From a virus (taxonomy: Duplodnaviria > Heunggongvirae > Uroviricota > Caudoviricetes), in the IMG/VR virus record IMGVR_UViG_2711768053_000020, positions 1-45,210 of that record: a stretch of DNA of 45,210 nucleotides. The stretch is one strand, 5' to 3'. The notes under the pieces are model-generated. The model worked only from the letters and a program-made list of their open reading frames with translations. It had not been told where the DNA came from and made no database searches. This document shows positions 1-41,215 of the stretch, piece after piece; the first letter of the stretch is position 1, and each line of letters starts with the position of its first letter. Made by a program: the position numbers and the translations under genes.

Positions 1-834
1 ATGTCATCTTCCATCAAACAACAGATTAGAGATCGCAGCGAGTACATTGGTTTTATCGAAAAATGTTTTGCAAATGCGCATCAATGCTACGTTGTCCATT
101 ATTCATGTGAATCTTTTTATGATGCTGTGGGCGGTAAATCCACAAGGATCACCTCTATTGCTGTCAGAAATTTAGGCAGTGGGCAAACAGATCATTGGGC
201 TCTTAATAGATCCGCAGAATTATTAGGTCTTGATGTTTCAGATGAAAAAAATCTCGATATCCTTGAGCATCATCTATTAGATAACTACTTTACATTCCTG
301 AAAAGATACGCACAATGCACATTTCTGCATTGGAACATGCGAGATAACAATTACGGATTTCAGGCCTTACAGCATAGATTTTCAGTCCTAGGTGGCGAGC
401 CCTTTATACTTACTGATGACAGAAAACTCGATTTAGCGAGAGCTGCCGTTTCTATATATGGACGAAGCTATATTGGGCATACCGCCAAAAGTGGCCGTGC
501 AGGTAGAATGTTAGCTCTTGTTGAAAAAAATGGTATCGCTGATAAAGATGTCTTAGCCGGCGCTGAGGAAGCCGAGGCATATGTCAAAGGTAAGTATAGA
601 GAGCTAGAAATGTCTACATTACGAAAGGTCGACATACTCTGTAATATTGCTGAGCGGATTCATGATCGTACTCTCAAAACTAACAATAAATGGTTTTGGC
701 CAAGAAGCTGGCATCCATATTGGTTAACGATGAGGCTCAAAGAACACCCATTAGTGACTGGATTAATAGTTTTAGGGATTTTCTTAGGTGTAATTACCAA
801 AGGTCTAGATCTATATGCTTGGTGGCAGCAGTAA
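1..834 (+). CDS. hypothetical protein (277 aa) with C-terminal hydrophobic segment
   Basis: ATG at window position 1 and an uninterrupted 277-codon ORF; C-terminal LVTGLIVLGIFLGVITKGL looks like a TM helix. No family recognised by eye. Confidence 0.45.
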   Translation: MSSSIKQQIRDRSEYIGFIEKCFANAHQCYVVHYSCESFYDAVGGKSTRITSIAVRNLGSGQTDHWALNRSAELLGLDVSDEKNLDILEHHLLDNYFTFLKRYAQCTFLHWNMRDNNYGFQALQHRFSVLGGEPFILTDDRKLDLARAAVSIYGRSYIGHTAKSGRAGRMLALVEKNGIADKDVLAGAEEAEAYVKGKYRELEMSTLRKVDILCNIAERIHDRTLKTNNKWFWPRSWHPYWLTMRLKEHPLVTGLIVLGIFLGVITKGLDLYAWWQQ

Positions 835-1046
835 AATGGGGTGTCAGGTCTTTATCGGGACACTGATACGGGGAAAGTTACAATACTGAGGCTGGTTCAC
901 GCTCAGAGCGTCAAAATTGTCCGTCACAGACTCGTCGCATCTGCACTTAATCCATATGACACGGATTGGACAGATTATATCCGATCCCGAACCACGCGTC
1001 TGACTGCACCTGCCGCATCATTTCACAGTGGTGTTTGATAAGGCTT

Positions 1047-1122
1047 GAGCCGTGTGAGCTGGAAACTCTCACGCACGGTTCTTAGAGGGGGCGTTGAAGG
1101 TAACTTCGGTGCCCTACTCGAC
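1047..1122 (+). mobile_element. group II intron 3' remnant (domain V plus domain VI-like hairpin with bulged A)
   Basis: GAGCCGTGTGAG...CTCACGCACGGTTC matches the conserved domain V consensus (GAGCCGUAUG...ACGUACGGUUC) at almost all invariant positions. It is followed by a GC-rich hairpin with an unpaired A near its 3' side. No intact reverse-transcriptase ORF lies upstream. Confidence 0.5.
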
Positions 1123-1170
1123 AAGACCGAAGATAGCAAAAAAACAACCCTACTTCATTCACCGAACTGA

Positions 1171-1476
1171 TGGGTAGCCAATATTCATGGCGGCAATCGG
1201 CAGCGCCCCTTCGAACGTAGTGACGAGGCCGAAGGTTTTTTAATAGTGACGTCTGCGGCCGATGAAGGCTTGGTTGATATACACGACCGACAGCCACTTG
1301 TATTGTCACCGGAGGCAGCCCGGGAATGGGATGCGCCAAGACGCCGAGGCAAGGAAGCAGAAGCGATTACCGACTACGGTGCCGTGCAAGCTGACAAGTT
1401 TATCTGGCATGCAGTTACGCGAGCGATGGGTAATGCGAAAAATCAAGGTGAATATCTTATTGTTTCAATTGAATAA
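1171..1476 (+). pseudogene. SRAP (YedK-like SOS-response-associated peptidase) 3' fragment
   Basis: Frame encodes ...GLVDIHDRQPLVLSPEAAREW..., resembling the C-terminal IHDRMPVIL region of SRAP/YedK proteins. The frame opens only after a stop at 1168-1170 and the N-terminal catalytic part is absent. Confidence 0.45.
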
Positions 1477-1553
1477 TAATGTTTTTACCTCAAATTAGCA
1501 TTATACTATTTCATGCTTTATTTACACCTCTTTAAATTAGGATAACAATTATA

Positions 1554-3302
1554 ATGGAAAACTCTAATAGCAATTTGATTGTAAAAATAGTTCATCTTCT
1601 ACAATCCGAAAGAGATGGACTTATTTTTATTGATGGAAAATGGGGAACAGGTAAAACTTTTTTTATTAAAAATGTATTTCCTCGTTTTTATGATCTTAAT
1701 GTGTTTTATTATATTTCATTACTAGGCGTTAAGTCTCTTGCAGATTTCAAAGCAAAGATTATTGACTGCTACTATCTTCAAGATATAGACACTCTTAAGT
1801 CTGGGTTAGATACTATTTCTGGTTTGGGTAGTGTAAGCAGTGGTTCTCCCGCTAGTGCCAATGTGCTTAATGGTGTGTTCAGTTCCATTGGTTCAAGTGT
1901 AAGAGAGAACATACTCTCCAAACTCAGTGGCATATTTATATTAGATGACATTGAGCGATTAAGCACTCCCTCACTGGCCAATGAAATACTAACTTATTGT
2001 CATTCGTTATATTCAACCTCAAAAATCTCTAGTTTGGATTTTATTGTTATATCTAATACATCTGCCGAATCCCACCTGTCATTAGAACATAAAGAAAAAA
2101 TTATTTCTGATTCACTTCATTACAACCCAAACCCTCGCGACATATTAGATATGAGAATAATTGAAGAAAAACTACAGTACTTCCCCACTGAAGACAAAAT
2201 GATTTTCGAAGAAATAATATCATACCATAACATAGTTAACATAAGAATTTTAATGAGGTGTTTAAATACTGCACTTCCATTATATTTACACGCAGAAAAC
2301 CACCCTGAACTAGAGTGGAAAATCGCCTCTAAAACCATACTAAGCTCAATTTTGTCATATTTTATCTTGTTATTTATCCATAACAAATCCATGGACGAAC
2401 TGATCATTGACAGCATCCAGCATATCCCACCCCAAAATTCCAGCAGCGATGAAAATCCACATGAACCGAGACTTTTGTCTACATTACACAATTATAAAAT
2501 TAATATTCACCTTAAAAATTACTACAGTGGTCATGTTTCTCTTTATGATATATTGGACGATGTTTTTTATGTGCCAACACCTTTAAGTACAATTGATATT
2601 ACAGTTTCAACTCGACCAGAACTACAGGAGACAGATGAAAAAGAATTTTTCCCCACGATTATTGGTTTAATTTCTAGAACAATACCATGTGATTTGCACC
2701 AATGGCTTAGGGCGGTTCAGAACTATGAATATTTGACTTATCATAAATATCTTCCAAAATCATCATTACTAACATTGCAGTTCATGAGTTCTAAATCACT
2801 CGAATTTAGTGACGAGGACATTATTACTTACTTTGAATTTCATAACAACAATCCAATCAGTAGTTGGACTAGTGGCTTTGATGATGGGAAACTTATATTT
2901 TCAATATTATCAGGCCGTCATAATAATATTGAAAAGAGAAAAAACTTAAAGGCAATTAAGGAAATTATTGAAACTGATGGTTGGGCTTTATTTGATGTTA
3001 ACTTATTACTCAAATTAGATCCCATGGGAAACTATAAAACGCTAGAAGTACTTGGCGCACCATTTTTGACCAAGTGCATTTTAAAAGAATGGAGCATTAA
3101 AGATATAGAGCAATTCAACGCTTTTTTAAGAAGTAATTATAGAATTAGTAACATATCTCAGTTTGCCACAAATGAAAAGCAGCGCCTTATATACCTCAAT
3201 CAAAAACTTGACATTTATTTCATAGGTAAGCAAGAAAGTTTTAAATATGGCGCGATATATGATTTAAACAATACAGTAAGACACGCAATTTCTTGCCTAT
3301 AA
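1554..3302 (+). CDS. KAP-family P-loop NTPase (582 aa)
   Basis: Long ORF in visibly AT-rich DNA; N-terminal Walker A within IDGKWGTGKTFF, the GxWGxGKT form typical of KAP NTPases. Confidence 0.75.
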   Translation: MENSNSNLIVKIVHLLQSERDGLIFIDGKWGTGKTFFIKNVFPRFYDLNVFYYISLLGVKSLADFKAKIIDCYYLQDIDTLKSGLDTISGLGSVSSGSPASANVLNGVFSSIGSSVRENILSKLSGIFILDDIERLSTPSLANEILTYCHSLYSTSKISSLDFIVISNTSAESHLSLEHKEKIISDSLHYNPNPRDILDMRIIEEKLQYFPTEDKMIFEEIISYHNIVNIRILMRCLNTALPLYLHAENHPELEWKIASKTILSSILSYFILLFIHNKSMDELIIDSIQHIPPQNSSSDENPHEPRLLSTLHNYKINIHLKNYYSGHVSLYDILDDVFYVPTPLSTIDITVSTRPELQETDEKEFFPTIIGLISRTIPCDLHQWLRAVQNYEYLTYHKYLPKSSLLTLQFMSSKSLEFSDEDIITYFEFHNNNPISSWTSGFDDGKLIFSILSGRHNNIEKRKNLKAIKEIIETDGWALFDVNLLLKLDPMGNYKTLEVLGAPFLTKCILKEWSIKDIEQFNAFLRSNYRISNISQFATNEKQRLIYLNQKLDIYFIGKQESFKYGAIYDLNNTVRHAISCL

Positions 3303-3310
3303 ATTGGCAT

Positions 3311-3347
3311 ACTAAGTCTCAGCCGAATTGTATAACTGAGACTTAGT
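3311..3347. terminator. perfect 12-bp inverted repeat (ACTAAGTCTCAG / CTGAGACTTAGT) between convergent genes
   Basis: Stem-loop with a 13-nt loop located 9 nt after the KAP NTPase stop and upstream of the umuC 3' end; no clean U-tract on either strand. Confidence 0.3.
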
Positions 3348-3425: not shown

Positions 3426-4700
3426 TCACCTGACAACGGGTAGATCAGAGAATCGGGTGGTGTAACGTGGAGAAAGCATTTCCCGTTTCATCTGCCACTG
3501 CTGCTGGATACCCTGTCCTGCAAAATACAGCGTCCCCCTCCCGCCTTTGGCATTGAGGTGATCCAGCACTTCCATCAGTTTCTCACTGCCCGGGCGCGGC
3601 GCGTTATCATCGAACAAGTTGAGCTGGGCCACGCCCTGACTGAAGAAATCACCCAACATCACCCCGGCTTTCTGATACCGATATCCGTCTTGCCATATGG
3701 CGTCCAGACAGCGGATGGCTGCACTGATGATATCCCGACTGTCCTGCGTAGGCGTCAGAAGCTTCACGGAGGCATTATTGCCATAATAGGGCTCGTTCAG
3801 TGCGAACGGGCTGGTCTTCACAAACGCCGAGATAAAACGGCAATACTGGTGCTCGCCACGCAGTTTCTCTGCCGCCCGCGAGGCATAGCTGCAGATCGCC
3901 TGGCGCATCTCTTCATACTCCGTGATACGACCGCTAAAAGAGCGGGAACAGATAATTTCCTGTTTCACTGGCGCGAATTCTTCCAGTGCCAGGCAGGGTT
4001 CTCCGCGTAACTCACGCACCGTTCGCTCCAGCACGACATTAAAATGTTTACGGATAAAACGGATGTCCGTATCAGCGAGTTGCAGTACGGTCTTGATCCC
4101 CATCGCCTCCAGTTTTTTCGAAATACGCCGACCGATGCCCCAGACTTCATCAACCGGCAGCGCGGCCATCAGTTTGCGCTGGCGATCGACACTGGACAGG
4201 TCTACCACCCCGCCCGTCTGCCGCTGCCATTGTTTGGCCGCGTGGTTGGCCAGCTTGGCCAGCGTCTTGGTCTGGGCAATGCCAACACCCACTGTCAGAT
4301 GCGTTCGCTGCAGAACAGTAGCACGGATTTCACGGCCAAAATCAGTCAGATCACGACAGTTACGTACACCAGTGAGGTCACAAAATGCCTCGTCTATCGA
4401 GTAAATTTCACAGCGCGGCGACATTTCTTCCAGCGTGGTCATCACCCGGTTAGACATATCCGCATACAGCTCATAGTTGCTGCTGAAGCACACCACCCCA
4501 TGGCGCCGGAAAAAGTCCTTCTGCCTGAAGTACGGCTCACCCATTTTGATACCCAGTTTCTTTGCCTCTGTGCTGCGGGCAATAACACAACCGTCATTGT
4601 TGGAAAGCACCACAACCGGCCTACCTTTGAGATCCGGGCGAAATACAGTTTCACAGGAGGCATAGAACGAGTTCACATCACACAACGCGTACATGATCAA
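3426..4700 (-). CDS. umuC: DNA polymerase V catalytic subunit UmuC (Y-family polymerase)
   Basis: 424 aa; N-terminus [20 protein letters not shown]...[15 protein letters not shown] and colinear similarity along the whole length to enterobacterial UmuC; start overlaps the umuD stop (ATGA). Confidence 0.95.
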
Positions 4701-5119
4701 CCCGTCGATTTCACGATGAACGTCACCACACCAAAAACATCGAGCGTTTCTTCGCTCCCGATGATGATAGGCGACCAGGCGCGGTTTTCAGGGTTAAGCT
4801 GGACAGTTGGCCATAACTGTAGGCGCTTAACGGTAAATTCCCCGTCCACCGCAGCAATAACGATATCGCCGTGCTCTGCCTTGCGTGAACTGTCCACTAC
4901 CAGTAAATCGCCTTCGCCGATCCCGGCATCAATCATCGAGTCACCAGATGCCTTAACGAAGTACGTGGCGCTGGGGTGTTGTATCAGTAGCTCGTTAAGA
5001 TCGATACGCTGTTCAACGTAGTCCTGAGCAGGGCTTGGGAAACCACAGGGTACAAGATCGCCATAGAGTGGAAGCGGCTGCACTGCACGCAACCCGGAGG
5101 GAGTGAAAAACTGCATCAT
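4697..5119 (-). CDS. umuD: UmuD (LexA-like self-cleaving SOS mutagenesis protein)
   Basis: Contains [18 protein letters not shown] and [17 protein letters not shown]...[17 protein letters not shown] motifs of UmuD. The track ORF begins at a TTG (5131); the tandem ATG ATG at 5114-5119 is the more likely start. Confidence 0.9.
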
Positions 5120-5135
5120 AATCACCGTCAATTAA

Positions 5136-5155
5136 TACTGATATTATATACAGTA
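5136..5155 (-). promoter_or_regulatory. LexA (SOS) box upstream of umuD
   Basis: TACTGATATTATATACAGTA has the CTG-N10-CAG SOS-box architecture and sits about 17 bp upstream of the umuD start. Confidence 0.8.
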
Positions 5156-5223: not shown

Positions 5224-5775
5224 TTACCTGGTTGCCGGAAATTTTTTATATAGCGTCGATATCCCAACATCGTAAATTAATGCCACACGCTGTCGTGATT
5301 CACCTGCTGCAACCAACCTTCCTGCCTGCGCCCACTGTTCATCAGTTAGCTTTGATCGACGCCCACCTATTCGCCCTTCTTCACGAGCCGCAGCCAATCC
5401 CGCCCTGGTACGTTCGACTATCAGCTCCCTTTCCATTTCGGCAAGTGCGCCCATGACATGGAAGAAAAAGCGTCCCATTGGTGAAGACGTATCTATGCTG
5501 TCGGTCAGGCTGCGAAAGTTAATACCCTTTTCCCGAAGCTCCTCCACCAAAACGACAAGATGCCGCATGCTGCGACCGAGTCGATCCAGTTTCCAGACCA
5601 CCAGCGTGTCACCTGCCGATAATGTCCTGAGCAGCTTTTTCAGTCCTGGTCTGTCGGACTTTGTACCGCTTATCTTGTCTTCAAAAATCAGCTCACATCC
5701 TGCACAGTTCAGCGCATTACGTTGTAGATCTGTGTTCTGGTCATTTGTTGACACACGTACATAGCCAATAAGCAT
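5224..5775 (-). CDS. serine recombinase, DNA invertase of the Pin/Gin/Hin/Cin family
   Basis: MLIGYVRVSTNDQNTDLQRNAL N-terminus with catalytic Ser, VVWKLDRLGRS and SPMGRFFFHVMGALAEMERELIVERT motifs, C-terminal HTH; likely start is the internal Met (MLIGYV). Confidence 0.9.
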   Translation of the reverse strand: MLIGYVRVSTNDQNTDLQRNALNCAGCELIFEDKISGTKSDRPGLKKLLRTLSAGDTLVVWKLDRLGRSMRHLVVLVEELREKGINFRSLTDSIDTSSPMGRFFFHVMGALAEMERELIVERTRAGLAAAREEGRIGGRRSKLTDEQWAQAGRLVAAGESRQRVALIYDVGISTLYKKFPATR

Positions 5776-5801
5776 GGTAGATCTCCCTGACAAAAGCAGG
5801 A

Positions 5802-6338
5802 ATGATGCCATTTGCTCGTTATTTCTGTATTTTCATAAACGTTGGTTTGGGAGAAGGCTCAGCATTACCTGTTGGGGTGCCTGTTCCGTGGCCTTCAGAG
5901 ACACCTCCAACAGGCTGGCTGAAATGCAACGGGGCGGCTTTTTCTGCTGAAGAATACCCGGAACTGGCAAAGGCTTACCCGACAAATAAATTGCCTGATT
6001 TACGAGGTGAATTTATTCGTGGCTGGGATGATGAACGTGGTGTGGATAGTGGGCGAACTCTGCTTTCAGCGCAAGGAGATGCTATTCGAAACATTACTGG
6101 CGGTTTTGGTCAGTTGCGCGTAAACAGCGAAATTAATGCAATTGTCGATGTTCAAAGCGTGAGTGGGGCTTTTTACGGAGGTACCTCCGTCCGGAATAAC
6201 ATCAATGTATCTATGACATACGCTAATGACCGAAAAATCCGACAAGATGTTCACTTCTCGGCGGCAAATGTTGTTCCAACAGCAAATGAAAATCGTCCAC
6301 GTAACATCGCCTTTAATTATATTGTGAGGGCCGCATGA
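5802..6338 (+). CDS. alternative tail-fibre C-terminal segment (silent orientation, promoterless exon)
   Basis: Frame reads through the crossover site (…NVGLGEGSALP…) so that inversion would fuse it to the constant N-terminus of the tail-fibre gene; WPSETPPTGWLKCNGAAFSAEEYPELAKAYP looks like a tail-fibre receptor-binding tip. Confidence 0.6.
   Translation: MMPFARYFCIFINVGLGEGSALPVGVPVPWPSETPPTGWLKCNGAAFSAEEYPELAKAYPTNKLPDLRGEFIRGWDDERGVDSGRTLLSAQGDAIRNITGGFGQLRVNSEINAIVDVQSVSGAFYGGTSVRNNINVSMTYANDRKIRQDVHFSAANVVPTANENRPRNIAFNYIVRAA
5830..5855. repeat. invertase crossover site (gix/hix-like 26-bp site), copy 1
   Basis: TTTTCATAAACGTTGGTTTGGGAGAA; the half-site TTGGTTTGGGAGAA is the reverse complement of the half-site inside the tail-fibre gene at 7799-7824. 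Confidence 0.6.
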
Positions 6339-6940
6339 TGAATAAAGCCGTATTGAATAGTGAACTCATTGCCATAAAAGCGGGAGACATTATCATTTAT
6401 AATTATGATGGTGAAACGCGGGAATATATTTCTACATCAACTGAATATCTCGCTGTCGGCGTCGGTATCCCGGCATGTTCCTGTTTGGATGCACCAGGTA
6501 CACATAAAGCTGGTTATGCAATCTGTCGCTCTGTAGATTTAAATTCATGGGAATATGTGCCAGACCATCGCGGTGAAGTTGTCTATAGTACCGAAACGGG
6601 AGATACCAAAGAAATCGCAGTTCCGGGTGATTATCCTGAAAATACAACCACTATCGCCCCGTTAACGCCATACGATGAATGGGATGGTGAGAAATGGGTG
6701 ACCGATACTGAAGCACAGCATAGCGCCGCAGTAGGCGCGGCAGAAGCACAGCGTCAGTCACTGATTGATACTGCAATGGCTTCCATTAGTCTGATTCAAC
6801 TGAAATTGCAGGCCGGGCGGAAGCTGACGCAGACAGAAAACACCCGACTTAACGCTGTGCTGGATTACATTGACGCGGTGACGGCAACAGATACCAGCAC
6901 CGCGCCGGACGTCATCTGGCCTGAACTGCCGGAGGCGTAG
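6335..6940 (+). CDS. tail fibre assembly protein (alternative copy, U'-like)
   Basis: 201 aa, follows the alternative fibre segment with a 4-bp overlap; C-terminal ...DYIDAVTATDTSTAPDVIWPELPEA resembles Tfa chaperones. Confidence 0.75.
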   Translation: MMNKAVLNSELIAIKAGDIIIYNYDGETREYISTSTEYLAVGVGIPACSCLDAPGTHKAGYAICRSVDLNSWEYVPDHRGEVVYSTETGDTKEIAVPGDYPENTTTIAPLTPYDEWDGEKWVTDTEAQHSAAVGAAEAQRQSLIDTAMASISLIQLKLQAGRKLTQTENTRLNAVLDYIDAVTATDTSTAPDVIWPELPEA

Positions 6941-7355
6941 GCCATTCAATATCTGGCGCACCGGAAGTATCAACCAGTTCCAGTGCGTCCAGATAATCCA
7001 GCCATAAATTATATTGTTCCAGCTCGTCACCTTTCAGACGACCAATAGCAGCTTTGCCAGGCCACTGATGGGTATTGATGTAGGTATTGACTTCTGAAAC
7101 CAAAGATATTTTTTTCATTTCAGCCGTCAACACCTCATCCTCTTTTGAAGGTGGTGGGGAATTAATCCATACTGGCCGTCCTGAACTGTCAGCGCCAATT
7201 TCTTTCCCTTCTGGATGCAGACCAAGAAATTGCTCATATGTTTCTCTGGTAATTTCAATAACATCATCAGGAAGCGTTCCCGCATCCTCATATTCTGGAA
7301 ACAATTCTTGCAGATAAAAACTTTTACTCCCGGGTGAAAAGAATACTGAGTTCAT
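6912..7355 (-). CDS. tail fibre assembly protein (expressed copy, U-like)
   Basis: 147 aa directly downstream of the tail-fibre gene; C-terminal ...DYLDALELVDTSGAPDIEWPTPP parallels the other Tfa copy. Confidence 0.8.
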   Translation of the reverse strand: MNSVFFSPGSKSFYLQELFPEYEDAGTLPDDVIEITRETYEQFLGLHPEGKEIGADSSGRPVWINSPPPSKEDEVLTAEMKKISLVSEVNTYINTHQWPGKAAIGRLKGDELEQYNLWLDYLDALELVDTSGAPDIEWPTPPAVQAR

Positions 7356-7357
7356 TA

Positions 7358-8101
7358 TTACCGTCCAATGATTAACGCTGAGACGCTGGTATCTGAAGGA
7401 AAGGCTGCATTCAGTGGTTTGTCGACTTTGAACACAATCGTATTATTCCCCCTGACAGCGGCAAAAGAACAAACCGCAGTCGCGTATGAACCTGTAATAT
7501 TACTGGATACACCACCATAAGCTGTTGTTGATACCAGAGGGACAACGCCCAGCACCTTATTAGGAAATACAAAGGGCAATGTGGCTGTGGCAATATAAGA
7601 CTTATTAGAGCCTGTGATGGCATAAGCATTATCAGTCATTCCATTCATCGCCACCGGGCCGCTTATACTTACAGTAACCATCTGAATGATTAGCCCGTCA
7701 GGTTGACGAATCACAAAATTTCCATTGCCACCAGTAACCGTCCAGAAAGACATATCAGGGATTTGGTTTTCCCCGTTGCCCACATTCCGTTTTGCCGCTT
7801 CTCCCAAACCAAGGTTTTCGAGAGCTGTTTTCACCGTGCCATCCGATTTGATATCGCCAAACGGATTCTTGCGGCTTAACAGCAGCGCACGAAGCGCGGT
7901 AAGCAGCTGGTCATGCCGCCCCTTCTCCAGGCTGGCACCGGATGCCTCCACAACGCTGCAAAGCTCCTCCTGCAACATGTCAAAGTAGTCATCATCCAGA
8001 TCGGTGGCAGGCGTGCCGGTCTGGGGGTTACCACGGGTAAAACCGTTCTTACCCGCGCCGAACTTATCCTTCTGCGCGGTTTTCGTGTCTATACGATGCA
8101 T
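7358..8101 (-). CDS. tail fibre protein (constant N-terminus plus currently expressed variable C-terminus)
   Basis: 247 aa ending the tail operon, immediately after the baseplate genes; crossover site embedded at residues about 94-101. Confidence 0.8.
7799..7824. repeat. invertase crossover site, copy 2 (inside tail-fibre gene)
   Basis: TTCTCCCAAACCAAGGTTTTCGAGAG in inverted orientation relative to 5830-5855; falls at codons about 94-101 (LGLGE) of the tail-fibre gene. Confidence 0.6.
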
Positions 8102-28327: not shown

Positions 28328-29080
28328 TTATCTTGTCACCTTTCTCAATTGTGTCTCTGCATATGCTTCTTCCTGCCAGCACTTTGTAACCAGTTTATCA
28401 ATGACATCTGCATATCCTTTGTACCACTGATAATCCGTCAGGTCTGGTACCAGCTTCTGGACATGATTCCGCGCCAGTGTGGTTGGTAAACGGCTAAATC
28501 GGTTTCCATTGCAACGCCCACAAATCTTATAAACAGGCGTGCCATGAAGCCGGGTCCTTTTTTCATCCAGGACAATACCTTTACCCTTACACCCTCTGCA
28601 CGCTGTGCTGACTTCTCCCTTACCATGACAATGCTGACATAGTTCCTTCACCCACTCTTCCTTGATAACAGATTCCCCGCTTCTGGAGTGTTTCACCACC
28701 TCGCGCAATACATTATGAAATCCAGTACCAGCACAATGCTCACAGCGAGCCTTACTTGCCGCAGACCTGGAATAATCAGCAAAGGCAAAATTCACAAGGT
28801 AAGGGATGATCTGTAACCGGATTTCTTCACTCAATTTGTTCAATGTCGGGTTATCCAGTGCCATCGCGTAATTGAGCAGACCTTCAATCGCAAACTGAGG
28901 ATCCTGAACACCAACTTTTGCCAGGAATAAGGCAAACCCAAGCGGTGCTTTCGACTGCACCATCCCCTGCGCAGCCATCACATCTGTAATTGTTAAACCA
29001 CCCGAGCCTGTCGCCGGTGCGTCATCACTCAATTTTGGAGATTTTGGGGAGTAATATTTTGGTAAAGCTTCAAGGTTCAT
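28328..29080 (-). CDS. Q: late gene antiterminator Q
   Basis: 250 aa with paired CxxC zinc-finger motifs (CEHCAGTG..., CQHCHGKG..., CRGCKGKG..., CGRCNGN) typical of phage 82/21-type Q proteins; located immediately upstream of the lysis region. Confidence 0.75.
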   Translation of the reverse strand: MNLEALPKYYSPKSPKLSDDAPATGSGGLTITDVMAAQGMVQSKAPLGFALFLAKVGVQDPQFAIEGLLNYAMALDNPTLNKLSEEIRLQIIPYLVNFAFADYSRSAASKARCEHCAGTGFHNVLREVVKHSRSGESVIKEEWVKELCQHCHGKGEVSTACRGCKGKGIVLDEKRTRLHGTPVYKICGRCNGNRFSRLPTTLARNHVQKLVPDLTDYQWYKGYADVIDKLVTKCWQEEAYAETQLRKVTR

Positions 29081-29093
29081 GCTCGTTCTCCAC

Positions 29094-30089
29094 TTACGCC
29101 AGTACGCCTATTGCCAGCGCACGATCGATAAAACGAAATATCAGCTCCAGCTGGGAGCCATACTTCTCTTCAAATGCCACGGTATCCGCATGCAGCTCGT
29201 CGTGATGCTTTCTGCACAAAGGCAACACAAAGAGGTCATGCGCTTTTGTACCCATCCCACCCTGACCGTGGCCTATCAGGTGGTGGGGATCATCAGCAGG
29301 CTTTCCACAACATGCACACGGCTGTGTCTTAACCCAGCGCGTGTACTTTTCATTAACCCAGCGGCGACGTTTTGGGCGTAACATAAAAGACTCCGGCGAC
29401 TCCGGATCCACTTTCAGCGCCAGCACCTTTTTCGCCTTATCCTGGATGATGCTGGTGGCAGGAACCGAAGGCACAAGGTCACTTTCCCGGGTGACAGACG
29501 GCACAACAGGCTTCGGTAATCTCAGTGCCTTACGGGCTGCACTTTCCGGTAAGGCATCCGCCAGGTCATTACGAATCAGCCACCAGCACAGTTCCGGCAT
29601 TGTCACAACGTGACTGTCATCAAAACCGAGATCCCGACGCACAACAGACAACACCCAGCGGGCACAGTTATCCGTTGCCATTGATTCCAGCCGTTCCGTG
29701 AACTGATCGCGCAGCTGGTTATCGCAGTGCCAGCACAGACGGATCGCGCCCGGCGCGTGTCGCATTGTGGTCATGTTCTCGCTGTGCCAGTCGGAATGAG
29801 GCCACTGACAGCCCTTTTCACGAAGTAACCAGCTTTCAAGACATTCCACGCCACCAGCACGACGGATCACTGCCTCATTGCAGAACACGGCTCGAACGGC
29901 AGGATCATCCGCCAGCGGTTGTGATGCCGCGGGAACGGCACCACTGGCGAAAGATGAATAACGTTCCGGCTCAGGCTCCAGCAGGACACGCCCCTGCATA
30001 AACAGGGGCATCAGCTCTGAACCGGGTCTGAACAATACGATCCCCATACGCGGGGCTATTTCAGGGGTCAGTAGTGCTCTCACGGTCAC
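29094..30089 (-). CDS. prophage protein with C-terminal HNH-like zinc-binding motif (DUF968-like)
   Basis: 331 aa; C-terminal CACCGKPADDPHHLIGHG...CRKHHDELH; in the nin-like region upstream of Q. Family name is from recollection. Confidence 0.6.
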   Translation of the reverse strand: MTVRALLTPEIAPRMGIVLFRPGSELMPLFMQGRVLLEPEPERYSSFASGAVPAASQPLADDPAVRAVFCNEAVIRRAGGVECLESWLLREKGCQWPHSDWHSENMTTMRHAPGAIRLCWHCDNQLRDQFTERLESMATDNCARWVLSVVRRDLGFDDSHVVTMPELCWWLIRNDLADALPESAARKALRLPKPVVPSVTRESDLVPSVPATSIIQDKAKKVLALKVDPESPESFMLRPKRRRWVNEKYTRWVKTQPCACCGKPADDPHHLIGHGQGGMGTKAHDLFVLPLCRKHHDELHADTVAFEEKYGSQLELIFRFIDRALAIGVLA

Positions 30090-30090
30090 C

Positions 30091-30900
30091 TCAATGAACG
30101 GTATCGAGCAGCTTTAACAGCTCAGGGAATCGGGATTCGAAGAAATGCGGCTGCGTCTCGCGCGGATTTGCAGGACTGGTGATGTTCTTGCCGAACATGC
30201 AGCCTTTCGCTGTCAGCGACCAGAATTTTTTGATGTTGTTAATCGCGGTACGGCTGTATCGTTCGCGCTGCTCGACGATCCCCAGCTTCACCATCTGGTG
30301 ATATGCCTGATTAGCCGTCAGGCGGATACCATACTGCTTCAGCAGTGCACTCAGTGACAGCGTAGGGCGACTTGAGCCATCGGGTGCATCGGCAGGAGCA
30401 TCAATTGCATAGCGCGGAGCCAGATTCGGTAAGCCAACAGCCTCCTGGAGTTTCTGACAAGCCCCAAGCACAGATGAGTTAGACAGGTTTAATTCCCGAC
30501 GCATAAAGTCCAGCAGAATCACACCAGCCTGCATCTTGTCAGCAGCCTGCCCGGATAATTTTTCCGGTGCGCTGGTTACCATATCGAAAGTACGGATCAC
30601 CTTCAGATGGAATGACGGGCTAATCCACATTGCATAGGCATACACCAGTTCCTTGCAGACATACGTTCCCCGTTCATTTCCCCCATGAATCACACTCACT
30701 GGGTCAACACCCAAATTCTGGGTGTTGGTCAATTCATGAACAAGCTCAACAGTTTGTTGGCTGGAAAGAAACTTTCCTGGCTCCTTGGTTCTGGCATTTG
30801 CACCAGATGCTACTGCTGCGCGATGCAGATCGTTCAGGCTGTAACGCCCATAAGCATCACGACGAACTTCAATACCATCAATGACCATCAGATTATTCAT
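30091..30900 (-). CDS. KilA-N domain protein
   Basis: N-terminal ...RYSLNDLHRAAVASG... resembles the KilA-N DNA-binding domain found in phage antirepressor-like proteins. Confidence 0.7.
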   Translation of the reverse strand: MNNLMVIDGIEVRRDAYGRYSLNDLHRAAVASGANARTKEPGKFLSSQQTVELVHELTNTQNLGVDPVSVIHGGNERGTYVCKELVYAYAMWISPSFHLKVIRTFDMVTSAPEKLSGQAADKMQAGVILLDFMRRELNLSNSSVLGACQKLQEAVGLPNLAPRYAIDAPADAPDGSSRPTLSLSALLKQYGIRLTANQAYHQMVKLGIVEQRERYSRTAINNIKKFWSLTAKGCMFGKNITSPANPRETQPHFFESRFPELLKLLDTVH

Positions 30901-30919
30901 ACTTCGTTTCTCCTCTTAA

Positions 30920-31309
30920 TCAGGCGGCTGCACCCGCCGGTTTCTCATACTTACTGATAGTGATCTCGACCTTTCCTTTCGGGATAACCGGTCCCCACTC
31001 CACCAGCATTCTTTTCACCTGTCTGTCGTCTTCCCACACCCCCGCGTGGGTCAGGGCGTCAAACAGCGCCTTGTTATAGTTGTCCAGATCGCGGATCCGG
31101 TTATCCGGAGGAAACAACACGATCTCCACTGAAGCAGGTGCCGACGTTGGTTTTGGCAGACGACGTAACTGCTCAACTATTGCTGCACACGCCGCGCTCT
31201 GGAATTTGCGCCCCGCCGCGCTTATCAGGCTCTTACCTGCAAACGCCCCTTTGTTGGGGTGTCGCCAGTACGTGTTCACGCTGGGCGGAAAAGGCAGTAT
31301 TAGCTTCAT
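30920..31309 (-). CDS. rusA: Holliday junction resolvase RusA
   Basis: 129 aa; LPFPPSVNTYWRH ... IRDLDNYNKALFDALTHAGVWEDDRQV matches RusA motifs including the catalytic DxD region. Confidence 0.85.
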   Translation of the reverse strand: MKLILPFPPSVNTYWRHPNKGAFAGKSLISAAGRKFQSAACAAIVEQLRRLPKPTSAPASVEIVLFPPDNRIRDLDNYNKALFDALTHAGVWEDDRQVKRMLVEWGPVIPKGKVEITISKYEKPAGAAA

Positions 31310-38891: not shown

Positions 38892-39710
38892 ATGTTTGCA
38901 TTGCTGATCATTCCACTTTTAGTAAGTGGATCCTTACTGGTTACATCGCCCCATAACATCAAATTATTCTATCGACTCCACCGTTACGACGGCCAGCTTC
39001 TCTATATGAAGGTGGCCACGTACGGTGTGTACTCGTTCATTGTTGCAGTCGTGCTGGCGTATGCAACCAAGTACTTTATACCAAGCCTTACACTGGTCAC
39101 ATGGGTATCACATCTTATTGATGGTAGTGCAGACCCTAAAGAAAACAGGATAACATCATGGCTCATCCTGCTATCAGTGGCGACTTGTGGAGTTGCTTTT
39201 ATTTGGTTGCAGATATGCAAATTTCGTATGTTTGTGGCAGCAAAAACTATTAGTTCTGCATCCAATAATGCAATTTCTATCAATTTCGCAAAGCAACTAA
39301 TCAGGCTTAATGAGTTGGAAAAACTGTTGTCTGATGGCTCACTTGGTCAGCTATTCTTTGATTCAGCGACTACAAACAGACCGGTACTGATAAGCCTGAA
39401 ATGCCGCAAAGTATATGTCGGAACAGTTAACATGATTAGTGAGCCAAACGAAAAACAAGGCCCTAACCTTGAAATTTCTATTAGCCCAATCATGTCTGGT
39501 TACAGGGACAAGGACACACTAAGGGTCCTGTTTTCAAATGATTACAACGATCTTGATGGAGTTGATACCAGTATCATATTTCCATTAAGTGAGGTTTCGC
39601 ATGCTTCTTGGTTCAATATGGATATACATGAAAAAGTAGACAATAACCGAGAGAAGAAACCAGAAACAAACCGCAAGAAAAAACGTAAATATGGCAGGAC
39701 TACGAATTGA
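38892..39710 (+). CDS. hypothetical membrane protein (272 aa)
   Basis: Starts 4 nt after the upstream stop; N-terminal half with several hydrophobic helices, C-terminal half soluble and basic at the end. Confidence 0.55.
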   Translation: MFALLIIPLLVSGSLLVTSPHNIKLFYRLHRYDGQLLYMKVATYGVYSFIVAVVLAYATKYFIPSLTLVTWVSHLIDGSADPKENRITSWLILLSVATCGVAFIWLQICKFRMFVAAKTISSASNNAISINFAKQLIRLNELEKLLSDGSLGQLFFDSATTNRPVLISLKCRKVYVGTVNMISEPNEKQGPNLEISISPIMSGYRDKDTLRVLFSNDYNDLDGVDTSIIFPLSEVSHASWFNMDIHEKVDNNREKKPETNRKKKRKYGRTTN

Positions 39711-39784: not shown

Positions 39785-39820
39785 ATTCGGACACGGGTTC
39801 AACTCCCGCCAGCTCCACCA
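39785..39820 (+). other. ssrA: tmRNA (ssrA) / tRNA-like 3'-end fragment ending in CCA; probable att remnant
   Basis: ATTCGGACACGGGTTCAACTCCCGCCAGCTCCACCA has T-arm, acceptor 3' strand and CCA, and from memory matches the 3' terminus of enterobacterial ssrA with one mismatch; no 5' portion of the RNA gene is present upstream. Confidence 0.55.
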
Positions 39821-39985
39821 CTTTTTAGTTGTTTGAAGTTCAATGAAGTCTACTAAGCCCACACAGCACAAGCTCTGCGGGCTTTTTTACGTCTATTGTC
39901 GTCCAGTGAGAATTGCTGAGAACTACGAGTTATGGCACCCTGAATGGGACCCATTAAGAAGGGTCCAAAAACCGAGGGTCCCAAA

Positions 39986-41215
39986 ATGGCAAAAATCGCT
40001 AAGAAGCTCACTGACACTGAAATCAAAAGCACCAAGCCAGCCGATAAAGAAATCAACTTGTTTGACGGTGATGGTCTGATTCTACGAATCGCTCCTTTGG
40101 CGAAAGGAGGCAAGAAAAATTGGTATTTCAGGTATGCAGTACCAGTGAGCAAGAAAAGAACCAAAATGAGCCTTGGGACATATCCTCACCTTACCCTTGC
40201 AAGAGCCAGAGCCTTACGTGATGAATATCTCTCCTTTCTGGCAAATGGTGTTGATCCCCAAATCCATAACAACGATAAGGCGAAGGCATTAAAGAGTGCT
40301 ACTGAGCACACTCTCCAAGCCGTAGCGCGGAAATGGTTAGATGAGAAGGTAAAGACATCAGGTATCTCACAAGACCATGCAGCAGACATCTGGCGCAGCT
40401 TAGAGAGAAATGTCTTTCCCGGTCTGGGTAATGTCCCTATCAATGAGATCCGACCTAAGCTCTTAAAACAACACCTTGATCCTATTGAGCAACGAGGCGT
40501 ATTGGAAACTCTACGCCGTATCATTTCACGTCTGAATGAAATCTTCCGGTGGGCAGCTACTGAAGAACTTATTGAGTTCAACCCGGCTGACAACCTTGGT
40601 CAAAGATTCAGTAAACCAAAAAAGCAAAATATGCCTGCCCTTCCCCCAAGCGAATTGCCAAGGTTTATGGAATCTTTGACGAATGCGTCAATCCGGTTGG
40701 AAACACGTATGCTAATTGAATGGCAATTGTTGACATGGGTTCGTCCGGGTGAAGCCGTTCGCGCAAGGTGGTCTGATATTGATACAACCAACAGCATTTG
40801 GAACATTCCTGCTGATTTCATGAAAATGAAAAAGCTTCACAAAGTTCCTTTGAGTAAAGAAGCTTTGCGCATCCTTGAATTAATGAAATCAATAAGTGGG
40901 CATAGAGAATGGGTTTTCCCCAGCATAAAAGCGCCTCTTAATCATATGCATGAACAAACAGCCAACGCAGCTATCATCCGAATGGGGTTCGGAGGCGAGC
41001 TTGTAGCTCACGGTATGCGTTCTATTGCACGAACAGCGGCAGAGGAGTCTGGTAAATTCAGAGCTGAAGTTCTTGAGGCAGCGCTTGCCCACTCGAAAAA
41101 AGATGAAATTATCGCAGCATACAATCGTGCAGAATATCTGATAGAGCGACAGAGTTTGATGCAATGGTGGAGTGATTACGTTCAAGCTCAAAGATCAAAT
41201 GCTCTGGTAGCCTAA
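39986..41215 (+). CDS. P4-type tyrosine integrase
   Basis: N-terminal MAKIAKKLTDTEIKSTKPADKEINLFDGDGLILRIAP...NWYFRY is the characteristic P4-integrase N-terminus; C-terminal ...AHGMRSIARTAAEESG...AALAHSKKDEIIAAYNRAEY catalytic region; directly downstream of the tmRNA-like fragment. Confidence 0.9.
   Translation: MAKIAKKLTDTEIKSTKPADKEINLFDGDGLILRIAPLAKGGKKNWYFRYAVPVSKKRTKMSLGTYPHLTLARARALRDEYLSFLANGVDPQIHNNDKAKALKSATEHTLQAVARKWLDEKVKTSGISQDHAADIWRSLERNVFPGLGNVPINEIRPKLLKQHLDPIEQRGVLETLRRIISRLNEIFRWAATEELIEFNPADNLGQRFSKPKKQNMPALPPSELPRFMESLTNASIRLETRMLIEWQLLTWVRPGEAVRARWSDIDTTNSIWNIPADFMKMKKLHKVPLSKEALRILELMKSISGHREWVFPSIKAPLNHMHEQTANAAIIRMGFGGELVAHGMRSIARTAAEESGKFRAEVLEAALAHSKKDEIIAAYNRAEYLIERQSLMQWWSDYVQAQRSNALVA

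What the first reader, a model, noticed from the sequence alone, without database searches (positions are those of the whole stretch)
1554..3302. Stand-alone KAP-family P-loop NTPase in AT-rich DNA next to umuDC
The GKWGTGKT Walker A is a strong KAP NTPase signature. The gene is visibly AT-rich relative to the flanking umuDC and lies beside mobile-element debris (intron and SRAP fragments), consistent with horizontally acquired cargo. KAP NTPases recur in defence islands but their function is poorly defined.
Basis: partly seen in the sequence, partly recalled or inferred. Interest (0 to 1): 0.5.

Follow-up and report, generated by a model that had tools for sequence, protein, structure and literature searches.

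The report
Prophage-borne KAP-like ATPase, probable phage defence
An intact, AT-rich 582-codon gene for a KAP-like ATPase with a helical-repeat tail sits as swappable cargo between two conserved DNA-damage genes of an E. coli prophage, a slot that holds recognised anti-phage genes in other species, so it is most likely an untested single-gene phage-defence protein of a recently described kind.

Summary
ORF 1554-3302 (+) is intact and encodes 582 aa with Walker A GKWGTGKT. Its GC is 0.33, against 0.54 for umuC.

The protein is a KAP-like P-loop NTPase. Pfam KAP_NTPase scores above its cut-off, but only over 33 residues. The KAP-type Walker A, DDxER Walker B and EK motifs are invariant across the family. 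The C-terminal half has an alpha-solenoid fold with no enzyme or membrane domain.

It belongs to a large uncharacterised family of about 580 aa, distantly related to PADLOC candidate PDC-S49.

The gene lies inside a roughly 40-kb prophage at ssrA, in a slot between an SRAP gene and umuC. That slot is empty in some Enterobacteriaceae. In others it holds unrelated, mostly AT-rich cargo, including PD-T4-3 and a UG17 defence reverse transcriptase.

NTPase alleles in this slot are 36-60% identical, while the flanking genes are 75-95% identical. Relatives also sit alone at lambdoid prophage ends, next to the integrase of a P4-like satellite, and inside a type I R-M operon.

Best reading: an autonomous, ATP-dependent phage-sensing defence protein. 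This is untested. It is a new member of a known kind.

The parts
1554..3302 (+). Intact gene for a 582-aa KAP-like P-loop NTPase with a C-terminal alpha-solenoid (stop codon included)
   Evidence: ORF listing. Pfam KAP_NTPase 28.9 bits against a cut-off of 20. PADLOC PDC-S49 E=8e-14. phrog_4740 E=7e-17. AF2 pLDDT 82.7. dN/dS 0.11-0.38.
1554..2408 (+). N-terminal NTPase module (aa 1-285): ASCE/AAA+-like core plus helical lid
1635..1658 (+). Walker A, GKWGTGKT (aa 28-35), in the KAP-type GxWGxGK[ST] form
   Evidence: Invariant in A1 and A2. Aligns to GAWGSGKT of PifA.
1785..1877 (+). Gly/Ser-rich, low-confidence insert (aa 78-108) between Walker A and Walker B; not hydrophobic
   Evidence: pLDDT below 50 over residues 78-108. 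The hydropathy scan finds no TM-grade segment here.
1932..1958 (+). Walker B and following arginine, IFILDDIER (aa 127-135)
   Evidence: D131 D132 R135 invariant and E134 at least 90% conserved. Aligns to VVMDDLDRL of PifA.
2451..3299 (+). C-terminal all-helical alpha-solenoid (about aa 300-582); putative sensor/specificity domain
1477..1553 (+). AT-rich upstream spacer of the cargo segment, with a promoter-like site (1521-1549) and AGGA 11 nt before the ATG
   Evidence: Sequence. Consensus scan, 9 of 12 matches, not above shuffle expectation. Inference only.
3311..3347 (+). Perfect 12-bp inverted repeat (ACTAAGTCTCAG / CTGAGACTTAGT, 13-nt loop) directly after the stop codon; possible terminator between the convergent NTPase and umuC genes
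   Evidence: Read directly from the sequence. Not called by the terminator scan, so it is tentative.
1139..1476 (+). SRAP (YedK-like) pseudogene remnant: the conserved left flank of the cargo slot
   Evidence: PF02586 profile positions 152-213 only. RefSeq pseudogene annotation. Intact 205-225 aa SRAP genes occupy the same position in L002, L005 and L019.
847..1122 (+). 3' fragment of a group II intron (end of the maturase ORF plus domain V/VI RNA) that truncated SRAP
   Evidence: Rfam RF00029 at 1045-1122, 53.6 bits. 84-96% nucleotide identity to ltrA regions.
3426..5131 (-). umuC and umuD (Pol V-type cassette): the conserved right flank of the cargo slot, convergent with the NTPase
   Evidence: Pfam IMS, IMS_C, DUF4113 and Peptidase_S24. 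81-95% and 75-91% amino-acid identity among loci whose NTPase alleles are only 36-60% identical.
5138..5153 (-). LexA-box-like site (CTGTATATAATATCAG on the - strand) upstream of umuD; no such site upstream of the NTPase
   Evidence: Pattern search allowing 1 mismatch. The window as a whole is not enriched for this pattern.
39796..39820 (+). Exact 25-bp repeat of the ssrA 3' end (attR): right boundary of the roughly 40-kb prophage that carries the gene
   Evidence: Pattern search, 0 expected by chance. ssrA lies 172 bp left of the window start in strain SZQ1.

Best explanation
The gene encodes an autonomous, single-protein anti-phage (superinfection-exclusion type) defence carried as prophage cargo. 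Shown here: it is an intact gene under purifying selection, a KAP-like P-loop NTPase with a complete nucleotide-hydrolysis motif set, fused to a faster-diverging alpha-solenoid, with no nuclease, protease, TIR, pore or transmembrane domain. It lies inside a prophage, in a slot (SRAP|umuC) that is empty or filled with unrelated cargo in other species, and that cargo includes full-length matches to recognised defence gene families. Its relatives recur in other defence-type positions. Inferred mechanism: the C-terminal solenoid binds a protein of an infecting phage. Binding switches the N-terminal ATPase into an ATP-dependent, probably oligomeric, active state of the AAA+/STAND kind. N168 would act as sensor 1, K182 at the arginine-finger position and R231 at the sensor-2 position. 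Because there is no separate effector domain, the ATPase-solenoid assembly itself would block infection. It could do so by sequestering or remodelling the bound phage protein, or by ATP consumption or membrane perturbation as reported for Tmn and PifA. Whether the cell survives (direct immunity) or dies (abortive infection) is left open.
For: Gene reality and constraint. KAP-type motifs and profile hits. Distant relation to the PADLOC candidate PDC-S49 (61 of 62 relatives, best E=1.3e-35) and to phrog_4740. Fold: AAA+/ORC-like N-half and HEAT/ARM-like C-half with no enzyme fold. The C-half diverges faster. Prophage cargo position. Hotspot evidence: among 80 species carrying the prophage-type SRAP, about 35 have the SRAP->/<-umuC pair. 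The gap between them ranges from about 10 bp to 5.9 kb. The 26 filled gaps carry 55 ORFs in 49 unrelated clusters, mostly AT-rich. This cargo includes PD-T4-3 (E=1.3e-135), RT_UG17 (E=2.1e-156), a PIN_12 protein and an Mrr_cat-like protein. Allele swapping: NTPase alleles are 36-60% identical inside flanks that are 75-95% identical, with discordant relationships (L002 against L019: umuC 95%, NTPase 38%). Other contexts of relatives: alone at the ends of lambdoid prophages in 71 E. coli genomes; directly after the integrase of a P4-like satellite at ssrA in Yersinia; inside a type I R-M operon between HsdS and a Schlafen gene in Clostridium tertium; in a Shewanella island with HsdR, HepT, RadC and a resolvase; next to an nSTAND3 gene in Hydrogenophaga; and on 57 IMG/VR viral contigs. 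Precedent: KAP NTPases fused to C-terminal regions of unknown function are experimentally validated single-gene defences that need both Walker B and the C-terminal region (PMC13552941). PifA is a KAP NTPase that excludes T7.
Against: No experiment exists on this protein or its family. PADLOC finds no match to a validated system, only N-terminal-half similarity to a candidate. The Pfam KAP match covers 33 of 293 profile positions, and profile-profile comparison with the PifA family gives only short segments at 83-86% probability. No homologue is present in 50,697 sequenced phage genomes. Some relatives sit alone among metabolic genes. The slot also carries non-defence cargo, namely an autotransporter and oxidoreductases, so location in the hotspot is suggestive rather than diagnostic. 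There is no recognisable effector domain, so the killing or blocking step is pure inference. dN/dS shows no gene-wide positive selection.
Confidence: 0.6

Rival explanations
1. The NTPase is an accessory of the SOS / DNA-damage-tolerance cassette (SRAP, UmuD, UmuC, DinI). On this reading it is an ORC/clamp-loader-like ATPase that loads, regulates or guards Pol V or SRAP-DNA crosslinks.
Against: 71 E. coli genomes, and Cronobacter, Pectobacterium, Yersinia, Vibrio, Shewanella and Clostridium, carry relatives with no umuDC or SRAP nearby. Eighty species have the same SRAP, about 35 of them with umuC, but none has the NTPase, and the slot is empty or holds unrelated genes. SRAP is a pseudogene in this window while the NTPase is intact. 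The NTPase is convergent with umuC, differs in GC by 20 points, and has no LexA-like box upstream. The ORC/Cdc6 NCBIfam score is 16 bits against a cut-off of 181.
Confidence: 0.08
2. It is prophage cargo with a function other than phage defence, for example plasmid or satellite exclusion, an addiction or toxin-like module, or a lysogenic-conversion factor. It could also be a largely silent, H-NS-repressed passenger.
For: The same slot holds an autotransporter and metabolic genes in other species. The very low GC is typical of xenogeneic DNA (own knowledge). The BASEL paper suggests that phage immunity may not be the primary function of PifA, and PMC13552941 says the same. The gene is retained in the decayed prophage of strain SZQ1, which fits any host-beneficial or selfish role.
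Against: Purifying selection over saturated synonymous divergence argues against a neutral passenger. No cognate antitoxin-like small partner is conserved. The positions of distant relatives (inside a type I R-M operon, at a P4 satellite integrase, next to nSTAND3) are those typical of anti-phage genes.
Confidence: 0.22
3. It is a mobile-element ATPase (TnsC/MuB/IstB-like target-selection or transposition helper) belonging to the element that delivers the cargo.
Confidence: 0.03

Closest known systems
KAP P-loop NTPase + C-terminal 'region of unknown function' single-gene defences (EF_KAP of Enterococcus faecalis and three gut-metagenome ORFs; PLoS Biol 2026, PMC13552941)
   Same: One gene, with a KAP-type NTPase followed by a roughly 300-aa C-terminal region that has no known domain. 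Located on mobile DNA, often near a small serine recombinase. Here a Hin/Gin-type invertase lies 1.9 kb away at 5224-5811, and resolvases lie next to the Shewanella and Clostridium relatives. The published proteins need both Walker B and the C-terminal region.
   Different: EF_KAP is modelled with two transmembrane helices, one of them inside the NTPase domain. The window protein has none. Hosts are Firmicutes versus Enterobacterales. The window protein is untested.
PifA of plasmid F (T7 exclusion; founding KAP member)
   Same: GxWGxGKT Walker A, hhhDDh[D/E]R Walker B and a downstream (E/Q)K-I-I motif align colinearly. It is encoded on a mobile element. It lacks TM helices (statement in PMC13001434). 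A weak profile-profile match links the C-terminal regions (aa 366-486 against 483-595, probability 86%).
   Different: PifA is 741 aa and matches the whole Pfam KAP profile (148 bits, positions 2-290), while the window protein matches positions 9-41 only. BLASTP similarity is limited to the motifs. PifA sits in an operon with pifC.
PADLOC phage-defence candidate PDC-S49
   Same: Best defence-database hit. The window protein scores E=8e-14 over aa 24-295, and 61 of 62 family members hit it, best E=1.3e-35. Model lengths of 619-629 aa are similar.
   Different: Only the N-terminal half aligns and the scores are far below family-member level, so this is a sister family rather than a member. PDC-S49 is itself an unvalidated candidate, and no paper mentioning it was found.
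STAND/Avs-type and AAA+ sensor ATPases of bacterial immunity (Avs3, RdrA of RADAR, QatA)
Prophage and satellite defence hotspots (P2/P4 hotspots, Rousset et al. 2022, PMC9122126)
   Same: A short variable slot between conserved phage-borne genes holds mutually unrelated, AT-rich cargo, including defence-family genes. The Yersinia relative lies next to the integrase of a P4-like satellite.
   Different: Here the frame is SRAP|umuC, an SOS-type accessory cassette carried by several prophage types (lambda-like, P2-like, the myovirus in this window) and one plasmid. I found no description of this slot in the papers searched. That absence is not proof of novelty.

Membership tests
KAP family P-loop NTPase (Pfam PF07693; Kidins220/ARMS-PifA) | Match to the family profile above the curated threshold | tested here: met
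   28.9 bits against a gathering score of 20. 28 of 28 close and 52 of 62 distant relatives also match. Caveat: only profile positions 9-41 of 293 are aligned, whereas PifA aligns over positions 2-290.
KAP family P-loop NTPase (Pfam PF07693; Kidins220/ARMS-PifA) | Walker A of the form GxWGxGK[ST] with the conserved tryptophan (motif form recalled from Aravind et al. 2004, which could not be opened, and checked against the PifA family alignment) | tested here: met
   G28 W30 G31 G33 K34 are invariant in 62 sequences. The PifA family has G53 W55 G56 G58 K59 T60 invariant.
KAP family P-loop NTPase (Pfam PF07693; Kidins220/ARMS-PifA) | Walker B hhhhDD-h-[D/E]-R, and a downstream (E/Q)-K-I-I motif before the last core strand | tested here: met
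   ILDDIER with D131 D132 R135 invariant, and E181-K182 (K182 invariant). These align to DDLDR (D203-R207) and Q258-K259-I260 of PifA.
KAP family P-loop NTPase (Pfam PF07693; Kidins220/ARMS-PifA) | Full-length homology of the NTPase domain to bona fide KAP proteins by profile-profile comparison | tested here: inconclusive
   hhalign of A2 against the PifA family gives three short colinear segments. The Walker A segment has probability 83% and the Walker B segment E=0.011. The third, C-terminal segment has probability 86% with realignment but only E=0.42 without it.
KAP family P-loop NTPase (Pfam PF07693; Kidins220/ARMS-PifA) | Transmembrane helices associated with the NTPase domain (present in many KAP members, absent in PifA) | tested here: not met
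   There is no TM-grade segment between Walker A and B. The only hydrophobic window (aa 257-275, KD 1.89) is an amphipathic lid helix that is not conserved as hydrophobic in distant relatives. This is not disqualifying, since PifA also lacks TM helices. A 70-residue insert with a disordered Gly/Ser stretch lies between Walker A and Walker B.
PADLOC candidate PDC-S49 | Full-length match to the PDC-S49 models | tested here: not met
   The match covers aa 24-295 against model positions 27-301 of 624, E=8e-14. The C-terminal half is unmatched. The best score in the whole family is 1.3e-35.
Validated KAP-NTPase + C-terminal-region antiphage proteins (PMC13552941) | Confers phage resistance that depends on Walker B and on the C-terminal region | not testable with these tools
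   Requires plaque assays. Only the architecture (NTPase plus a roughly 290-aa region with no known domain) could be shown.
STAND NTPases (NACHT / NB-ARC / Avs) | NACHT or NB-ARC-type profile match, plus an effector domain and a repeat sensor | tested here: not met
ORC/Cdc6-type AAA+ initiators | Family profile match and a C-terminal winged helix | tested here: not met
Prophage defence hotspot (in the sense of the P2/P4 hotspots) | Conserved flanks, empty and variably filled states, and cargo that includes validated defence systems | tested here: met
   Flanks are 75-95% identical. Six empty sites were found (about 10 bp apart) and 26 filled sites with 49 unrelated protein clusters. PD-T4-3 and RT_UG17 are present in L156. 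Statistical enrichment over background was not computed.

The most novel reading that the evidence does not exclude
The SRAP|umuC junction of an SOS-type accessory cassette, carried by several unrelated prophage types and a plasmid across Enterobacteriaceae, may be a previously undescribed exchangeable defence hotspot. The KAP-like ATPase family found in it (TM-less, alpha-solenoid tail, more than 240 diverged lineages) may be a new effector-less class of phage sensor whose ATPase is itself the effector. A further possibility is that placement between a LexA-controlled umuDC operon and SRAP is not accidental. Convergent SOS-induced transcription, or DNA-damage signals, could gate the cargo, which would link prophage induction and SOS to defence. 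The recurrence of umuDC, SRAP, nSTAND3 and a family member together in a betaproteobacterium hints at this.
Probability: 0.15. Interest if true: 0.65.

Novelty: new member of a known kind. Interest (0 to 1): 0.45.

Why it matters
If it is confirmed as a defence gene, three things would follow. First, it would add an Enterobacterales representative that can be studied directly in E. coli to the newly recognised class of KAP-NTPase single-gene defences, which has been validated experimentally only in Enterococcus (PMC13552941). Second, it has no transmembrane or enzymatic effector domain, which makes it a clean case for asking how an ATPase plus a repeat sensor alone can stop a phage. Third, the natural series of alleles (36-80% identical) sitting in an otherwise conserved frame is a ready-made set for mapping specificity to the C-terminal solenoid. 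The SRAP|umuC slot could also serve as bait for finding further defence genes in enterobacterial prophages.

Tried and rejected
1. Sequence search of the PDB found nothing relevant (best E=0.24 to a circadian protein).
3. NCBIfam gave no family.
4. A literature search for PDC-S49 found nothing. The original KAP paper (PMC416466) is not held, so the family's motif definitions were taken from memory and checked against a PifA-family alignment built here.
5. LexA-box search: a site lies upstream of umuD only, and the pattern is not enriched in the window. The conserved TATACTTTCAGT upstream of SRAP in L002 and L005 has the wrong spacing for a LexA box (read).
6. A transmembrane KAP architecture was rejected.
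7. Obligate partnership with SRAP or umuDC was rejected.
8. Gene-wide positive selection was not seen. The large divergence between alleles in conserved flanks is better explained by replacement of old allele lineages than by fast evolution in place.
9. tblastn against 50,697 deposited phage genomes gave no hit.
10. The promoter and terminator scans were not above shuffle expectation.
Full report
OBSERVATION. The ORF at 1554-3302 (+) is exactly as described. It has an ATG start, encodes 582 codons and ends in TAA. Residues 28-35 read GKWGTGKT, and a Walker B-like ILDDIER lies at residues 129-135. Its GC content is 0.326 (GC3 0.285). The adjacent umuC is 0.542 (GC3 0.626), umuD is 0.529, and the window as a whole is 0.483. 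umuC and umuD lie on the minus strand (Pfam IMS/IMS_C/DUF4113 and Peptidase_S24). A C-terminal SRAP fragment lies at 1139/1246-1476 and is annotated as a pseudogene in RefSeq. The 3' end of a group II intron is present: Rfam RF00029 matches 1045-1122 at 53.6 bits, and 847-1203 matches ltrA regions of plasmids. The ORF is a real gene. It has 45 homologue clusters by word search and 243 representative clusters at E<=1e-30 by exhaustive profile search, most of them 555-615 aa and matched end to end. Pairwise dN/dS among alleles is 0.11-0.38.

WHERE IT SITS. The window is Escherichia coli. In strain SZQ1 the window's first base lies 172 bp downstream of ssrA (tmRNA). An exact 25-bp copy of the ssrA 3' end lies at 39796-39820, with none expected by chance. 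The first roughly 39.8 kb is therefore one integrated element. It encodes terminase, sheath, tape measure, baseplate, tail fibres with a Hin/Gin-type invertase, a cI-like repressor and an integrase. The NTPase lies inside this prophage, between attL and the tail-fibre module. The region is rare. Only 3 of 5,426 complete E. coli genomes carry it, and 74 of 5,426 carry any allele of the gene, always as a single chromosomal copy.

WHAT THE PROTEIN IS. Pfam KAP_NTPase is the best profile hit and scores above its curated cut-off (28.9 against 20 bits), but it covers only residues 10-42. AAA_22, ATPase_2, NACHT and NCBIfam ORC/Cdc6 models all fall below their cut-offs. All 28 close relatives and 52 of 62 distant relatives hit KAP_NTPase. 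In an alignment of 62 sequences that are 17-58% identical to the query, the invariant residues are G28 W30 G31 G33 K34, S55, D131 D132 R135, K182, R231 and W513. T35, E134, N168, E181, N229, W384, F521, E541 and G566 are conserved in at least 90%. The three N-terminal motifs (GxWGxGKT, DDxER, EK) align colinearly with GAWGSGKT, DDLDR and QK-I-I of PifA, the F-plasmid T7-exclusion protein that gave the KAP family its name. PifA, however, matches the whole Pfam profile at 148 bits. Profile-profile comparison of the two families yields only short segments at 83-86% probability. I therefore call the protein KAP-like: the motif-level tests are met and the full-domain test is inconclusive.

DEFENCE DATABASES. 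PADLOC gives no hit to a validated system. The best hit is the candidate PDC-S49: E=8e-14 over aa 24-295, with 61 of 62 relatives matching and a best E of 1.3e-35. PHROGs gives phrog_4740, of unknown function, again over the N-terminal half. The family is thus a sister of PDC-S49 rather than a member.

THE SLOT. In Citrobacter amalonaticus (lambda-like prophage), C. freundii (P2-like prophage), an unnamed enterobacterium, an Enterobacter plasmid and several IMG/VR prophages, the gene sits in the same frame. That frame is SRAP -> NTPase -> <-umuC <-umuD, followed by DinI or an invertase. Across four such loci umuC is 81-95% identical, umuD 75-91% and SRAP 86-90%, but the NTPase is only 36-60% identical. 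The relationships are discordant: for L002 against L019, umuC is 95% identical and the NTPase 38%. All NTPase alleles have GC 0.32-0.33, against 0.47-0.55 for the flanks. I then searched one genome per species with the SRAP protein. Eighty Enterobacteriaceae species carry it at 78-91% identity, about 35 of them with the convergent umuC, and none has the NTPase. The distance between the SRAP and umuC ends is about 10 bp in six genomes, which are empty sites (sequence). It ranges from 0.4 to 5.9 kb in 26 others. The inserts are mostly AT-rich (GC 0.32-0.45) and encode 55 ORFs that fall into 49 unrelated clusters. Among the cargo in other species:
- Buttiauxella sp. B2 carries a full-length PD-T4-3 homologue (E=1.3e-135) and a UG17 defence-associated reverse transcriptase (E=2.1e-156).
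- Raoultella carries a PIN_12 protein.
- One genome carries an Mrr_cat-like protein.
- One genome carries a large serine recombinase.
- Non-defence cargo is also present, including an autotransporter and oxidoreductases.

SRAP|umuC therefore behaves like the variable hotspots described in P2 and P4 (PMC9122126), and the NTPase is one of its interchangeable cargoes. In the window, SRAP has since been truncated by a group II intron while the NTPase stayed intact. This shows that the NTPase does not need SRAP.

AUTONOMY AND OTHER CONTEXTS. Relatives occur in many settings without a conserved partner.
- The roughly 58%-identical allele in 71 E. coli genomes stands alone after the tail-fibre genes at the ends of lambdoid prophages, at different chromosomal sites.
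- The Cronobacter and Pectobacterium genes stand alone in the chromosome.
- The Yersinia gene follows the integrase of a P4-like satellite at ssrA.
- The Vibrio gene lies in an integrase/GPA-replicase element.
- A Shewanella relative, named 'KAP family NTPase' by NCBI, lies with HsdR, HepT, RadC and a resolvase.
- A Clostridium tertium relative is embedded in a type I R-M operon, in the order HsdM-PIN_12-HsdS-KAP-Schlafen-HsdR, with a resolvase upstream.
- A Hydrogenophaga relative lies next to an nSTAND3 gene and, notably, again near umuDC and SRAP.
- 57 IMG/VR contigs encode relatives, the close ones mostly at contig ends.
- No deposited phage genome does.

INTERPRETATION. The best-supported reading (confidence 0.6) is an autonomous single-protein anti-phage defence carried as prophage cargo. 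The inferred mechanism has three parts: the solenoid senses a phage protein; this switches a KAP/AAA+-like ATPase into an active, probably oligomeric state; and, because there is no separate effector, that assembly itself blocks infection. Precedent comes from PifA. It also comes from the 2026 demonstration that KAP NTPases fused to C-terminal regions of unknown function are potent single-gene defences that require both Walker B and the C-terminal region (PMC13552941).

The main rivals are as follows.
- A non-defence cargo function, confidence 0.22.
- A role in the SOS cassette, confidence 0.08. This is disfavoured by the many contexts that lack the cassette, by the empty or otherwise-filled slots, and by the SRAP pseudogene here.
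- A transposition-type ATPase, confidence 0.03.

Nothing here is experimental, and the blocking step is inference.

COMPARISON AND NOVELTY. The protein works like the KAP-plus-unknown-C-terminus defences and like PifA. It passes the motif-level KAP tests, fails full-length membership of PDC-S49, and lacks the TM helices of many KAP proteins, as does PifA. I rate it a new, untested member of a known kind. I did not find that slot described in the papers searched.

Noticed in passing
window 41742-45210 (- strand): Two overlapping AT-rich genes (GC 0.34) lie just beyond attR, after a second P4-type integrase (39944-41215). One is a 588-aa protein with Response_reg_2 (PF19192, E=3.7e-31). The other is a protein of at least 572 aa with HEF_HK and HATPase_c (PF19191, PF02518). 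This looks like a separate two-gene conflict or defence-type module in the next island at ssrA.
   Followed up: partly
window 1-834 (+): A 277-aa ORF directly after ssrA/attL has GC 0.40 and a hydrophobic C-terminal helix. It has no Pfam, PADLOC or NCBIfam family, but matches phrog_8766 (unknown function) strongly (E=2e-54). It is conserved together with the NTPase in the three E. coli genomes and one IMG/VR contig. It may be another cargo gene.
   Followed up: partly
L081-L160 (80 species); e.g. L156:7657-12101, L152:7657-9151, L094:1215-2660, and empty sites such as L081:7657-7668: The junction between the prophage-type SRAP gene and the convergent umuC gene is a variable cargo slot. It is empty (about 10 bp) in six genomes and holds 0.4-5.9 kb of unrelated, mostly AT-rich genes in 26 others, including PD-T4-3, RT_UG17, PIN_12 and Mrr-like proteins. 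Several cargo proteins of 310-355 aa have no family at all.
   Followed up: partly
L161:667-9737 (Hydrogenophaga flava): In a betaproteobacterium, umuC-umuD, a divergent SRAP gene, a 1,322-aa nSTAND3 protein and a 578-aa member of this NTPase family lie side by side. This repeats the umuDC/SRAP/defence-like association far outside the Enterobacteriaceae.
   Followed up: no
window 847-1476: The SRAP gene was cut by a group II intron, of which only the 3' end survives (maturase C-terminus 841-1038, domain V/VI RNA 1045-1122). Both the intron's 5' part and SRAP's 5' part are gone, which implies a later deletion.
   Followed up: yes
L001 (E. coli SZQ1) 25224-31042, compared with window 5224-39820: In strain SZQ1 the same prophage is largely decayed, with tail-fibre genes joined to a yfdR fragment and an integrase. 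The cargo block (orf277, NTPase, umuDC, invertase) is retained at 99.9% identity.
   Followed up: partly
L002:9251-9290: The SRAP gene of the Citrobacter amalonaticus locus has an in-frame stop after codon 12 (MCGRFAQAQTRE*). SRAP is therefore also inactivated, or restarted downstream, in a second locus that keeps an intact NTPase.
   Followed up: no
window 5224-8101: A Hin/Gin/Cin-type invertase (195 aa) sits next to oppositely oriented tail-fibre and tail-fibre-assembly gene pairs. This is a typical invertible host-range segment. It is also the 'small serine recombinase' that a 2026 study uses as bait for defence genes.
   Followed up: no
window 38892-39710 (+): A 272-aa ORF lies between the prophage integrase and attR and has no Pfam family. 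It is another possible cargo gene at the opposite prophage end.
   Followed up: no
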